NCBI GenBank assembly: GCA_040220235.1
Contig: JAVJTO010000126.1
DNA from: Coleofasciculus sp. B1-GNL1-01
Lineage (GTDB): Bacteria > Cyanobacteriota > Cyanobacteriia > Cyanobacteriales > Coleofasciculaceae
Length of the DNA: 40,015 nucleotides
Direction: 5' to 3' (one strand)
The first letter of the stretch is position 1; each line of letters begins with the position of its first letter. Position numbers and translations under genes: made by a program. Of this stretch, positions 5,666 to 9,445 are shown in pieces. A model generated the notes under the pieces. That model was not told where the DNA came from. It worked only from the letters and a program-made list of their open reading frames with translations, and made no database searches.

Positions 5666-5799
5666 AGCGTCAACTTTAGAGTTTGTAGTAAGCGCTTTAG
5701 CGCTGATCTCTCATGGACTGACAACAAAGCCAAAGCCTTATTATTACTACCTTATACCGGGTAGACTACCTACTTTCCAAGTAGCGTATCACCCCGTCA

Positions 5800-5861
5800 G
5801 GTTTATGGCACTAAAGTGCCTACTACGAACGGTTTATGGCACTAAAGTGCTTACTACGAAC
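5800..5861. repeat. Two tandem 31-bp units carrying a GTAG-type palindrome
   Basis: GGTTTATGGCACTAAAGTGC(C/T)TACTACGAAC x2; the reverse complement matches the GTAGTAAGCGCTTTAGCGCT motif at 5685 and a variant at 13805. Confidence 0.8.
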
Positions 5862-6237
5862 GGAACGAACGCGATCGCCTGATCAATTACGTCTACGTCT
5901 GACAATTTTGCTTCCCCTGACATCCCAGAGGATAGGCTGAATTGTAGGTATGCGATCGCTTACCTCCCACACGCTGAAGACGCCAGTAAAGCTCAGTAGC
6001 CTTTGGAGACTGCCGTTGTGCCTAGCATAAGAATCCTCATAATAATGCCTCCGTCGCAGGAAACTCCGTGTATGCGAGACCGGAGAGGAATGCGCGGTAG
6101 CGGTTTTAAACTCCTAAGCTTTCCACAGGTTATACTGATTCTATTGTTGCTGCCGTAGTAATTTAACTCAGGACAGCATAACTGAGTCTTCTGTTGATGT
6201 TAAAACGAGAGTTAAAAAATACTAATCGTGAGGATTT

Positions 6238-6765
6238 ATGACTATTTTAGATTCTAAAGGTCGTCTTTTTGGTAAAATCAGCATTCTTGATCTAGGGGCT
6301 GCCTTGGTCATTTTATTAGTGATTGTGGGAATCTTTTTCATTCCAGGTACAGGTTCCGTCGCCCAGATACCTGGAAGCAGCGCCGAAAAATCTGTTGAAG
6401 TTGATTTGATTGTTCGAGGGTTGAGCGTGCGTAAGCCAGAGGATTTGATGTCTCAATTTAGAGCAGAAAAGAAAACAAATATCGTTATTCGTAATCAACC
6501 CTCTGGTAAGGTAGACATCATATCGGTACAAGAATTGCCAAGACTGGTTATTGTACCTCAACCCGATGGCTCGGCTAAAGCGCTACCCGATCCCAGACCT
6601 GACACCTTTAGCACTGATATACTAATGACCCTCGGTGGTCAAGCCACTATTACCGATGATGGTCCGGTTCTGGGAAATAGCAAGCTTAAAATTGGAACGC
6701 CTGTGGAATTAGAGGGTAAGGATTACAATTTCAACGCTAGCGTGATTGATGTCAGGGTTGAGTAA
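6238..6765 (+). CDS. DUF4330 family cyanobacterial membrane-anchored protein
   Basis: MTILDSKGRLFGKISILDLGAALVILLV N-terminus and GAGGA RBS; the stop codon TAA is supplied by the IscB element end. Confidence 0.85.
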   Translation: MTILDSKGRLFGKISILDLGAALVILLVIVGIFFIPGTGSVAQIPGSSAEKSVEVDLIVRGLSVRKPEDLMSQFRAEKKTNIVIRNQPSGKVDIISVQELPRLVIVPQPDGSAKALPDPRPDTFSTDILMTLGGQATITDDGPVLGNSKLKIGTPVELEGKDYNFNASVIDVRVE

Positions 6766-6990
6766 ACTACCTGCCGCTAAGTCGGAGTACCGACTCTAGC
6801 GGGGGCTTTTAAAGAAGCCCAGAGTTTACCAGGCTGAGTGTTAATTCACTACGTTACGAAAGTCAAGATACCTAAGAATGCGTAGCCAGTTTTTAGCTCT
6901 ATCGTTTGCGATTAAACAGACATATCGGGTTGAAGTCAGTGTCGTAAACCCAAAAAGCTTTCGTAACATTGCCAAGGCTAACATTACCCG
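6762..6990 (+). ncRNA. omegaRNA / HEARO RNA scaffold (guide = upstream flank, about 6742-6761)
   Basis: HEARO-type landmarks in order: GTAAACT...AGTTTAC closing stem, CCAGGCTGAG, CTACGTT, ACCTAAGAATGC.TAGCCAGTTTTTAGCTCT, AACATTGCCAAGGCTAACATTACCC; lies directly upstream of iscB. Confidence 0.85.
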
Positions 6991-7006
6991 CAAGGAGACT
7001 CAAGCT

Positions 7007-8293
7007 TTGAGTAAAGTTTTCGTTTTAGACACCAACAAGCAACCTCTCAACCCCATCCATTCAGGTAGGGCAAGAATGCTGTTATCTCAAGGGAAAGCCG
7101 CTGTATTTCGGCGCTACCCTTTCACCGTGATACTGAACAAGGAGGTGGTCAACCCAAAAGTAGAATCGCTTCGAGTCAAAATCGACCCAGGCGCGAAAAC
7201 TACAGGACTAGCATTAGTCAACGACAGTACTGGTGAGGTTGTTTGGGCTGCCCAGTTACAACACCGAGGGTTTCAAATTCGGGATGCTTTAACGTCACGC
7301 CGCCAGTTAAGACGCTCACGCCGTAACCGCAAAACTCGTTACCGCAAGTCACGTTTTCTGAACCGTACTCGCCCTGAAGGATGGTTGCCACCATCGTTAA
7401 ACAGTCGAGTCGCCAACATCTTGACTTGGGTTAATCGCCTATCATCCATATCTCAAATTACTGCCATATCTCAAGAATTGGTCAGGTTTGACACTCAGCA
7501 GATGGAAGACGCTGAAATTAGCGGAATAGGCTATCAACAAGGCACACTATTCGGTTACGAAATCCGTGAGTTTTTGCTCGAAAAGTGGAACAGAACCTGT
7601 GCCTACTGTGGCGAAAAAGACACCCAACTTGAGATTGAGCATATAAATGCCCGCTCAAAAGGGGGTTCCAACCGAATCAGTAACTTGTGCCTAGCCTGTA
7701 CCTCTTGTAATCAGAAAAAGGGCAACCAGGATATTAAGGATTTCCTCAAGGGTAAACCTGACCTGCTCAAATGCATCCTGTCTCAAGCTAAAAGACCTTT
7801 GGCTGACACAGCAGCAGTCAACGCAACCCGATGGAATCTGTACTATAACCTCAAAAAAACGGGTTTACCTGTCGAAGTTGGCACGGGTGGTCGCACCAAG
7901 TACAACCGAACCATCCGAGGTTTAGACAAAACTCATTACTGGGACGCGGCCTGTGTTGGAGCTTCAACCCCAGAGCAGTTAATCACATCAGAAGTTAAAC
8001 CTCTATTGATTGCTGCTAAAGGTCACGGAACCCGTCAGCAGTGCCGTACTGACAAGTTCGGGTTTCCTAGTCGTTATTGCAAGAGAACAAAATTTCACAA
8101 AGGTTTTCAGACGGGTGACATCGTTAAAGCTGTTGTCACTTCTGGCAAAAAGATTGGAACTTACGTTGGGCGGGTAGCCACTCGTGCTACTGGAAGTTTC
8201 AATATTTCCACAACAGATGGACTGGTTCAAGGAATCAGTCATAAATACTGCTTGCCACTTCACAAAAAGGATGGGTATTCATACATACAGTGA
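7007..8293 (+). CDS. iscB: RNA-guided endonuclease IscB (428 aa)
   Basis: TTG start 7007 after an AAGGAG RBS. PLMP-like (VFVLDTNKQPLNP), RuvC-I (KIDPGAKTTG), Arg-rich bridge helix (RRQLRRSRR), RuvC-II (QELVRFD), HNH (CAYCG...EIEH...SN...CTSCNQKKGN), RuvC-III (HYWDAACV). The track's 6878 start runs through the omegaRNA. Confidence 0.95.
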   Translation: MSKVFVLDTNKQPLNPIHSGRARMLLSQGKAAVFRRYPFTVILNKEVVNPKVESLRVKIDPGAKTTGLALVNDSTGEVVWAAQLQHRGFQIRDALTSRRQLRRSRRNRKTRYRKSRFLNRTRPEGWLPPSLNSRVANILTWVNRLSSISQITAISQELVRFDTQQMEDAEISGIGYQQGTLFGYEIREFLLEKWNRTCAYCGEKDTQLEIEHINARSKGGSNRISNLCLACTSCNQKKGNQDIKDFLKGKPDLLKCILSQAKRPLADTAAVNATRWNLYYNLKKTGLPVEVGTGGRTKYNRTIRGLDKTHYWDAACVGASTPEQLITSEVKPLLIAAKGHGTRQQCRTDKFGFPSRYCKRTKFHKGFQTGDIVKAVVTSGKKIGTYVGRVATRATGSFNISTTDGLVQGISHKYCLPLHKKDGYSYIQ

Positions 8294-8296
8294 TTT

Positions 8297-8332
8297 GAAA
8301 AATTTAGGGGTATTGAACCCCATAAATTTTTC
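8297..8332 (+). terminator. Hairpin directly after iscB
   Basis: GAAAAATTTAGGGG-TATTGAA-CCCCATAAATTTTTC imperfect inverted repeat. Confidence 0.45.
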
Positions 8333-8429
8333 CTCGTTTCCTCCCGCCGCTAAAACTTTGGCGGTACTCGCTTCGCTTGTCCTAATCCGCCTCGTTTATA
8401 GCGGGGGTCTCCACGAGGAGGAAAGATGA

Positions 8430-8528
8430 AAGGGAACAGGGAATAGGGAGCATGTAGAGACGTAGCATGCTACGTCTGGGAGCTGGGGGAGATAATGAAA
8501 TGACAAAAGACTAATGACAAAGGACTAA
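8430..8528. repeat. Mixed short repeats (GGGAACA/GGGAATA heptamers, GTAGAGACGTAGCATGCTACGTCT palindrome, GACAAAG/GACTAAT heptamers)
   Basis: Seen directly; the palindrome family recurs at 10673-10696 and, degenerate, at 33467 and 35520. Confidence 0.7.
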
Positions 8529-9445
8529 TCTGCAATTCTGTCCTCAGACTTTAGCATTTTCAAATACTTTTGGATTAAACCAATTGTGACGGCTGGTAAT
8601 TCGAGCTGAGGAGTCAATCCAACATCCTCAAGGGTTTGAAAGACTTGAACAGCTTTCGGATTGAGAGCCGCCAGTCGTTTGCCGATTTCTGGGCTGGTAA
8701 ATTCCGATTTTTGTCCCCAGATAATTGCTGTGGGAGTGGTCAGTTGAGTAATGTACAGGGATAAGTCAAAGCACAAGTCTCCCCGTACAAACGACAGCGC
8801 TGCATATTCAGCATTGGGTTGTTGAGCTGAGGCTAAATAAGCATCCACAATTTCTGAGTAAATTCGGCTGGAACGAGCAAATTGCCGACTTTCCAAGAAA
8901 CTGCGGATACCGCCTTCAGTGGCGACACCAGTGCTGTAGAGGATGCGATCCAGAATCGGTGTGCTGATTAACTGAGCAAAAAAGCTACGTGTGTAGTCTT
9001 CCCCGAAATCAGAGAGTCCTGATGGAGTGGTGAGAATCAAAGACTTATACAGTTCAGGACGTGCGATCGCGGCTCGGATTGTCAAAGCGGCGGTTAGAGA
9101 CGAAGCAATCACTGGTGTTCCTTGAGGACAGGTTTGCTCTAGGAATTCATTAATCGTGGTGATGTAGTCATCAATCTGATAATTGCGTTCAGGATGCTCT
9201 GAACGACCCCAACCGATGAGGTCAGGGGCTAAAACTCGATACTCACTGGCAAATGCCGGATAGACCTTTGACCACTCATAGGCTGATGACCCGCCCCCAA
9301 AGCCATGCAAAAACACTAATGTTGGTCGTTCTTCTGGCTCAGGGGTTTCTGGGGTTTGCCACGGCATGTCGTCAGCCGTGTAGTATGTCATGCGTCCCAG
9401 TGAGGTCACTAAGGAGTGCTGTTTAAAACCGTTGGGTTCAATCAT
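8525..9445 (-). CDS. Alpha/beta fold hydrolase
   Basis: LVFLHGFGGGSSAYEW, VLAPDLIGWGRSEHP, nucleophile-elbow variant VIASSLTAA, TAIIWGQK. Confidence 0.9.
   Translation of the reverse strand: MIEPNGFKQHSLVTSLGRMTYYTADDMPWQTPETPEPEERPTLVFLHGFGGGSSAYEWSKVYPAFASEYRVLAPDLIGWGRSEHPERNYQIDDYITTINEFLEQTCPQGTPVIASSLTAALTIRAAIARPELYKSLILTTPSGLSDFGEDYTRSFFAQLISTPILDRILYSTGVATEGGIRSFLESRQFARSSRIYSEIVDAYLASAQQPNAEYAALSFVRGDLCFDLSLYITQLTTPTAIIWGQKSEFTSPEIGKRLAALNPKAVQVFQTLEDVGLTPQLELPAVTIGLIQKYLKMLKSEDRIAD

What the first reader, a model, noticed from the sequence alone, without database searches (positions are those of the whole stretch)
6751..6829. Silent stop-codon swap: the element's end G-TAA replaces the host's A-TGA
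Seen: the filled site reads GTT GA|G TAA and the reconstructed empty site reads GTT GA|A TGA, both V-E-stop. The element starts GTAAAC rather than the usual GTCAAC, and its pairing partner co-varies (GTTTAC at 6824 instead of GTTGAC), so the stem is kept while a TAA is created. Inference: whenever the ATGA TAM overlaps an in-frame TGA, this variant changes NNA to NNG (synonymous except ATA) and TGA to TAA. It would insert at gene ends at no protein cost while gaining a host promoter and guide. I do not know of this being described as a strategy for IscB elements.
Basis: partly seen in the sequence, partly recalled or inferred. Interest (0 to 1): 0.85.

Follow-up and report, generated by a model that had tools for sequence, protein, structure and literature searches.

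The report
Transposon end that rebuilds stop codons
A known kind of small RNA-guided jumping gene (IscB) comes in a variant whose first bases spell a new stop codon, and copies of this variant sit exactly at the ends of host genes several times more often than the usual form, so they leave the host protein unchanged.

Summary
A 1,664-bp non-autonomous ISC/IscB-HEARO element (6762-8425) sits at the last codon of a DUF4330 gene. Three of 8 same-genus genomes carry the predicted empty allele, GTT GAA TGA AAGGG. The GTAA start is an inherited element end, not a local repair: its P1 partner and the putative TnpA guide (CTTG to CTTT) change with it, and near-identical siblings sit at non-stop sites. 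GTAA copies close a long upstream frame more often than GTCA copies: cyanobacteria 11 of 91 vs 4 of 163 sites (p=0.004); families with ATGA/GTGA targets 10 of 80 vs 2 of 70 (p=0.036). This genome has a second case, in the ndhC/ndhK ATGA overlap. Limits: only 12-17% of GTAA copies are at stops; the excess comes from GTAAAC starts, not GTAAGC (2 of 44); no independent GTAA replicate was available; and start codons are the main site class for both variants (56 of 106). Best reading: ordinary ATGA targeting plus better survival of copies that rebuild the stop. This scan noted start-codon and overlap parking before on other DNA; I found no earlier GTAA-versus-GTCA contrast.

The parts
6238..6765 (+). 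Host DUF4330 gene; its last sense codon (GAG) and its stop (TAA) are completed by the element
   Evidence: ORF; PF14221; orthologue ends
6742..6761 (+). Host flank predicted to be the omegaRNA guide (length approximate); with the ATGA TAM it matches the empty allele
   Evidence: Inference from IscB architecture (10.1101/2023.03.14.532601) and empty alleles L023-L025
6762..8425 (+). Complete non-autonomous ISC (IS200/IS605) element, 1,664 bp, no target duplication, no tnpA
6762..6987 (+). HEARO / IscB omegaRNA scaffold
   Evidence: RF02033 145.7 bits, model 1-211
6762..6767 (+). Variant start GTAAAC: G completes the Glu codon, TAA (6763-6765) is the new stop; on the minus strand TTAC is the predicted TnpA right-end cleavage tetramer
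   Evidence: TTAC/AAAG pair of IS608 in PMC3201880 (passages)
6806..6809 (+). CTTT (AAAG on the minus strand, at the foot of hairpin 1): predicted TnpA DNA guide for TTAC; usually CTTG in GTCAAC elements
   Evidence: Fold; covariation counts; role inferred
6824..6829 (+). GTTTAC, P1 pairing partner of the start
7007..8293 (+). iscB, 428 aa from an inferred TTG start; open frame with RRXRR and HNH domains
   Evidence: NF040563 guided_IscB 463.6 bits, cut-off 175; PF14239 and PF01844
8330..8425 (+). ATGA-side end: hairpin, TCTC at 8408-8411 (predicted TnpA guide for the target) and a G-rich tail that can pair with 8332-8337
   Evidence: guide role inferred
8426..8429 (+). ATGA target / TAM; holds the displaced host A-TGA. 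Here it opens only a 6-codon frame, so this site is a stop only, not an overlap

Best explanation
An ISC/IscB element is moved in trans by a Y1 transposase (inferred; the genome has 13 Y1_Tnp matches) and is inserted in front of ATGA without reading any frame. One end variant starts GTAA instead of GTCA and carries compensating changes in the omegaRNA P1 partner and, in GTAAAC elements, in the TnpA guide, so it remains a working, inherited end (covariation shown, activity inferred). When the ATGA overlaps an in-frame TGA, this variant turns NN|A-TGA into NN|G-TAA and the host protein is unchanged (shown here and at ndhC). The usual end adds about 5 residues and sends ribosomes into the omegaRNA start. 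Copies at gene ends and at ATGA stop/start overlaps therefore survive better when they carry GTAA (enrichment shown, cause inferred). The host gene's transcript supplies guide and omegaRNA, and IscB can then cut empty alleles and retain the copy (known for the family, not tested here).
For: Empty alleles at two sites in this genome: DUF4330 in 3 of 8 genomes, and ndhC/ndhK empty in 4 of 5 genomes searched, filled in 1. P1 covariation 340 of 341 elements; among the 184 found with a pattern allowing either partner, 1 was mixed. Guide: CTTT in 26 of 44 GTAAAC loci vs CTTG in 146 of 208 GTCAAC loci. Long upstream frame in frames 0/1/2: GTAA 1/5/18 of 106, GTCA 10/16/10 of 243, p=1.4e-4; viral contigs 5 of 9 vs 3 of 46. 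Cyanobacteria pooled 11 of 91 vs 4 of 163, p=0.004. ATGA/GTGA-target families 10 of 80 vs 2 of 70, p=0.036. Element families with a stop site 10 of 45 vs 3 of 74, p=0.004. Nine of the 11 cyanobacterial upstream frames have Pfam hits. Siblings L569 and L570 keep the same end at non-stop sites.
Against: GTAAGC starts make the same TAA but are not clearly enriched (3 of 47 vs 3 of 131, p=0.19; 2 of 44), and this split was made after seeing the data. Most GTAA sites (88 of 106) are not at stops. The read-through avoided is a median of only 5 residues. Targets were inferred from a nearest neighbour for 27 GTAA and 42 GTCA sites and are unknown for 50. The planned replication gave 32 new GTCA sites but only 1 new GTAA site. 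Hosts differ in how often genes overlap, and the null comes from one genome. In GTAAGC and many GTCA elements the guide position is CTTC, which does not follow the simple pairing rule.
Confidence: 0.62

Rival explanations
1. Neutral variant with confounding: GTAA is just one of the tetramer/guide pairs that Y1 transposases tolerate, and the excess at stops comes from host mix (overlap-rich phages and archaea), element age or small numbers. The window's case is then a lucky insertion.
For: GTAAGC shows no excess. TTAC/AAAG is also IS608's natural left-end pair (PMC3201880). There are only 11 cyanobacterial stop sites, and no independent GTAA replicate. GTCA read-through is short.
Against: The contrast holds within cyanobacteria, within ATGA-target families and at family level. 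It is specific to frame 2: GTAA cyanobacteria 1/2/11, GTCA 3/8/3. Stop sites fall in several separate IscB clades.
Confidence: 0.22
2. Repair after insertion: a usual GTCA copy lands on a stop codon and host selection later fixes a C-to-A change in place.
For: One viral copy (L374) has a GTAAAC start at an in-frame stop but keeps the uncompensated GTTGAC partner and CTTG guide. The label changes at least 10 times on the IscB tree. This may be how the variant first arises.
Against: The window copy has all three changes, and near-identical siblings with the same end sit at non-stop sites. 111 of 112 GTAA elements are compensated. Another mixed copy (L609) is not at a stop.
Confidence: 0.08
3. 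Active targeting: GTAA-type ends or their transposase prefer ATGA sites at gene ends at the moment of insertion, for example through longer pairing or single-stranded DNA at terminating complexes.
For: Only the enrichment itself. Meers et al. leave open whether IscB orientation bias is generated or retained (passage).
Against: In IS608, changes in the left guide but not the right guide change the target (PMC3201880), and the GTAA change is at the right end. The flanks upstream of GTAA copies share no evident sequence. Strong depletion inside genes shows that selection shapes the pattern (frame 1: 26% of ATGA sites vs 2 of 90).
Confidence: 0.05

Closest known systems
ISC transposons with the N|ATGA target (ISC1-1_MA, ISC2-1_MS; Kapitonov, Makarova and Koonin 2016, PMC4810608; passages seen)
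   Same: Non-autonomous IscB element, 5'-GT terminus, insertion before ATGA, no target duplication, subterminal hairpins, cyanobacterial hosts.
   Different: The main text has no 'GTAA', 'stop codon' or 'start codon' (0 occurrences each). Fig. 2B, Table 1 and the supplement, where unusual termini are shown, were not seen.
GstIscB / ISGst5 and the IscB orientation bias (Meers et al., bioRxiv 10.1101/2023.03.14.532601; passages seen)
   Same: TAM TTCAT (ATGAA on the other strand), guide from host flank, need for transcription from outside, TAM/TEM covarying with DNA guides, retention by cutting empty sites.
   Different: Reports bias to same-strand upstream genes, not codon-exact placement; 'stop codon' occurs 0 times in the main text.
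IS608 TnpA end recognition (He et al. 2011, PMC3201880; passages seen)
   Same: A four-base cleavage site read by a four-base guide at the foot of the hairpin; the pair TTAC/AAAG is the one found at this element's omegaRNA end.
   Different: In IS608 that pair is the left-end target pair; here it is the right, element-encoded end.
IStrons (PMC4227781 and 10.1101/2023.11.20.567912, search listings and abstract starts only; review PMC13565253, passages)
   Same: IS200/IS605-type elements whose insertion spares the host protein.
   Different: IStrons splice out of the RNA and can sit anywhere in a gene. This variant has no intron (Rfam finds only HEARO in the window) and is silent only at a stop codon.
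ERIC and other bacterial MITEs co-transcribed with neighbouring genes (Delihas, PMC2229807; passages seen)
   Same: Small non-autonomous elements next to gene ends, co-transcribed with host genes.
   Different: They have inverted-repeat ends and TA duplications. The passages seen describe ORF fusions and mRNA stability, not stop replacement.

Membership tests
ISC / IscB-omegaRNA (OMEGA) elements | IscB protein with RRXRR/RuvC and HNH domains | tested here: met
   NF040563 463.6 bits vs cut-off 175; PF14239 and PF01844; motifs IDPG, SQELVRFD, IEHI, THYWDAA in an open 428-aa frame (their catalytic role is recalled)
ISC / IscB-omegaRNA (OMEGA) elements | HEARO/omegaRNA directly upstream of iscB, starting at the element end | tested here: met
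   RF02033 6762-6987, full model
ISC / IscB-omegaRNA (OMEGA) elements | Insertion at N|ATGA with no target duplication | tested here: met
   Empty alleles L023-L025; right end before 8426
IS200/IS605 superfamily | Subterminal hairpins with guide and cleavage tetramers on one strand | tested here: met
   Minus-strand DNA folds z -5.0 and -2.75; AAAG at the hairpin foot with terminal TTAC. The guide role is by analogy with IS608.
IS200/IS605 superfamily | Y1 transposase available (in cis or in trans) | tested here: met
   None in the element; 13 PF01797 matches over the cut-off elsewhere in G000. Which one is cognate was not tested.
ISC / IscB-omegaRNA (OMEGA) elements | RNA-guided cleavage of the empty site; TnpA-dependent excision | not testable with these tools
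   Needs experiments; contigs of four runs showed no joint skipping the element, which proves nothing
IStrons | Group I intron fused to the element | tested here: not met
   The only Rfam match in the window at gathering score is HEARO

The most novel reading that the evidence does not exclude
The GTAA end is a repeatedly evolved adaptation of IscB elements. It rebuilds the upstream gene's stop, while the G-rich ATGA-side end can serve as the downstream gene's ribosome-binding site. The element can then sit, without splicing and without changing either protein, in ATGA stop/start overlaps of core operons such as ndhC/ndhK, where it is always transcribed and its guide matches a conserved sequence. 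It may arise by a single C-to-A change selected at a stop codon (as L374 suggests), later compensated in the RNA stem and the TnpA guide.
Probability: 0.35. Interest if true: 0.72.

Novelty: new variant of a known kind. Interest (0 to 1): 0.52.

Why it matters
The same four bases serve as transposase cleavage site, omegaRNA stem and host stop codon, and the two natural versions (GTCA and GTAA) share hosts and target. That gives a built-in control for asking whether transposon ends evolve to lower their cost to the host, and a two-allele experiment that can be run directly. It also means IscB elements at gene ends are easy to miss in annotation, because the host protein looks intact.

Tried and rejected
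Expression: contigs of two RNA-library runs and two DNA runs cover the gene-element junction (one RNA-library contig spans 6418-7555), but contigs cannot show transcription and the libraries may hold DNA. No joint skipping the element was listed. No conclusion drawn. Promoter and terminator scan of 5900-8700 gave counts at shuffle level (3 vs 3.6; 5 vs 3.2). The class-wide control search found only 9 of 401 genomes with the strict GTCA pattern. The planned replication in two more families added controls but only one new GTAA site, because the GTDB-wide scan had already caught nearly all of them. Looser patterns gave chance hits inside genes: 33 of 547 candidates were dropped by an omegaRNA profile, including some real but decayed copies of both classes. 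The Shine-Dalgarno role of the ATGA-side end is not accepted as shown: anti-SD pairing is stronger than in the displaced host sequence (median -7.25 vs -2.15 kcal/mol, n=56), but the end profile was seeded with G-rich ends, the tail can pair in a stem, and the anti-SD motif is recalled. Sharing of a site across genomes was too rare to test persistence. The ORF finder's ATG at 6878 was rejected as the iscB start because it lies inside the omegaRNA. The paper asked for as PMC8929163 (meant to be Altae-Tran et al. 2021; id recalled) was not held, and Weinberg et al. 2009 was not read, so what they say on insertion sites is unchecked.

Full report
The observation. The window reads GTT GAG TAA at 6757-6765, the end of a 175-aa DUF4330 gene. 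Rfam HEARO matches 6762-6987 over the whole model at 145.7 bits, so the element begins GTAAAC and supplies the last base of the Glu codon and the stop. Its pairing partner GTTTAC is at 6824-6829. An iscB frame follows (NF040563, 463.6 bits; 428 aa from an inferred TTG at 7007), and the element ends at 8425 before ATGA. DUF4330 was found in 39 of 41 genomes, and I read 30 of those loci. Among the 8 other same-genus genomes, 3 have exactly the predicted empty allele GTT GAA TGA AAGGG, 1 has GAA TGA with another next base, 2 end natively in GAA TAA, 1 shares the insertion and 1 has a different end.

What the element is. It is a non-autonomous ISC element of the IS200/IS605 superfamily. The N|ATGA target and 5'-GT terminus are described in PMC4810608 (passages). 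No transposase lies inside it, but the genome has 13 Y1_Tnp matches. On the minus strand both ends fold into hairpins (z -5.0 and -2.75). At the omegaRNA end, AAAG lies at the hairpin foot and TTAC at the terminus, the same guide/cleavage pair as at IS608's left end (PMC3201880, passages). That role is inferred by analogy.

The variant is inherited. Of 341 pattern-defined elements, 229 pair GTCA with TGAC, 111 pair GTAA with TTAC and 1 is mixed. Only the 184 metagenome and viral loci came from a scan that allowed either partner. The putative guide is CTTT in 26 of 44 GTAAAC loci and CTTG in 146 of 208 GTCAAC loci, but CTTC in 39 of 68 GTAAGC and 17 of 39 GTCAGC loci, where the rule does not hold simply (loci, not independent sites). 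On a quick IscB tree of 118 rows the label needs 17 changes, at least 10 forced by strongly supported branches (SH-aLRT only, and end swapping between elements could add changes). The window's closest siblings, L569 and L570, keep the same end at sites that are not stops.

The enrichment test. I gathered GTAA elements GTDB-wide (99 loci), GTCA controls from the same and related genomes, further GTAAAC loci and both classes from metagenome and viral contigs. Of 547 candidates, 33 failed an omegaRNA profile. Of the 514 left, 438 had at least 302 bases upstream, and these collapsed to 349 sites. A site counts if 99 or more codons are open upstream in a given frame; frame 2 is the one the target's TGA closes. 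Frames 0/1/2: GTAA 1/5/18 of 106; GTCA 10/16/10 of 243 (frame 2, p=1.4e-4). Cyanobacteria: 11 of 90 vs 3 of 131 (p=0.004); viral contigs: 5 of 9 vs 3 of 46. In this genome 1.05% of all ATGA sites, and 1.6% of those outside long same-strand frames, are in that class. Empty alleles showed that some GTCA families use other targets such as CTGG, GTGG or ATGG, so I restricted to ATGA/GTGA families: 10 of 80 vs 2 of 70, p=0.036 (many targets assigned from the nearest neighbour, 50 unknown). By element family it is 10 of 45 vs 3 of 74, p=0.004. A further search added 32 GTCA sites (1 in frame 2) and 1 GTAA site (0), giving 11 of 91 vs 4 of 163. Nine of the 11 cyanobacterial upstream frames have Pfam hits, among them DnaJ, a histidine kinase, CbiQ and NDH chain 3.

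Results against. The excess comes from GTAAAC starts (8 of 36 vs 2 of 59 GTCAAC); GTAAGC starts make the same TAA and are at 2 of 44. That split is post hoc and unexplained; young expansions of short GTAAGC copies are one untested possibility. There is no independent GTAA replicate. The usual start would add a median of only 5 residues in that frame, so the avoided cost is small unless ribosomes entering the omegaRNA start matter.

The wider pattern. At the other end, 56 of 106 called ends open a frame of 99 or more codons at the target's ATG with no long frame upstream (26 of 50 GTAA, 30 of 56 GTCA), against 4.7-7.8% in the null. Of the 45 cyanobacterial cases, 32 have Pfam hits, many starting near the N-terminus. 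So start codons are the main niche of both variants. Of 7 GTAA stop sites with a called right end, 5 are ATGA/GTGA stop/start overlaps. This genome has a second case on contig C6: a 449-base IscB-less GTAAAC copy in the ndhC/ndhK overlap, with TC|G TAA in the filled and TC|A TGA in the empty allele (empty in 4 of 5 genomes searched, filled in 1). The window's own site is a stop only. The G-rich tail pairs better with a recalled anti-SD motif than the displaced host sequence does, but that measure is biased by how ends were called and the tail can form a stem, so I leave it as inference.

Mechanism. Shown: exact junctions, an unchanged host protein, three-way covariation and a frame-specific excess. 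Inferred: TnpA mobilisation in trans, target choice by the four bases alone, better survival of stop-rebuilding copies, read-through transcription of guide and omegaRNA, and retention by cutting empty alleles. The last two are described for the family in 10.1101/2023.03.14.532601 (passages). One viral copy, L374, has an uncompensated GTAAAC at an in-frame stop, a hint of how the variant could arise; another mixed copy, L609, is not at a stop. Read mapping was inconclusive.

Novelty. Paper searches (listings and abstract starts) and term look-ups in PMC4810608, the Meers preprint, PMC13565253 and PMC9581776 ('stop codon' 0 times in each main text) gave no description of this. Figures and supplements were not seen, the library lacks most subscription papers, and the 2021 Science paper on IscB and the 2009 HEARO paper were not read. 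Earlier notes of this scan describe IscB copies at start codons, stops and overlaps on other DNA. I read them after my own counts, and none of the lines shown compares GTAA with GTCA. Verdict: a real, modest and testable variant of a known element. Interest 0.52.

Noticed in passing
G000:C6:80876-81324 (L003): 449-base IscB-less GTAAAC element in the ndhC/ndhK ATGA overlap, present in several same-genus genomes and absent in four others.
   Followed up: yes
window 8445-8493: Short repeat just downstream of the element with very high summed contig depth and many unrelated loose ends; probably a genome-wide intergenic repeat.
   Followed up: no
L374 (viral contig), element start: GTAAAC start with uncompensated GTTGAC partner and CTTG guide at the end of a frame of more than 800 codons; a possible intermediate.
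   Followed up: partly
L314 (metagenome), element start: A GTCA element completes TA|G, making a TAG stop from the host's last two bases.
   Followed up: no
G000:C64, C14, C11, C69 (L014, L016-L018): Weak HEARO-like matches starting TTCAAC or TTCATG, possibly ends of related TnpB-type elements.
   Followed up: no
L153, L509, L511, L517, L527, L437 and others: GTCA families in these cyanobacteria whose empty alleles begin CTGG, GTGG, ATGG, ATGC or ATAG rather than ATGA: natural TAM diversity.
   Followed up: partly
GTCA element starts, all hosts: The first stop inside GTCA elements comes after a median of 5 codons in frame 2 but 11-12 in the other frames; this may be chance from the hairpin loop or a weaker form of the same effect.
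   Followed up: partly
L021 / L589 (G006): The DUF4330 orthologue ends V-D-D-stop with unrelated sequence at exactly the insertion point; perhaps a scar or another insertion.
   Followed up: no
window 5797-5862: Direct repeat of about 30 bases in two copies, upstream of the divergent MFS transporter gene.
   Followed up: no
L583 (G485:C199): A GTAAAC start and a GTCAAC start lie about 155 bases apart, one nested in the other.
   Followed up: no
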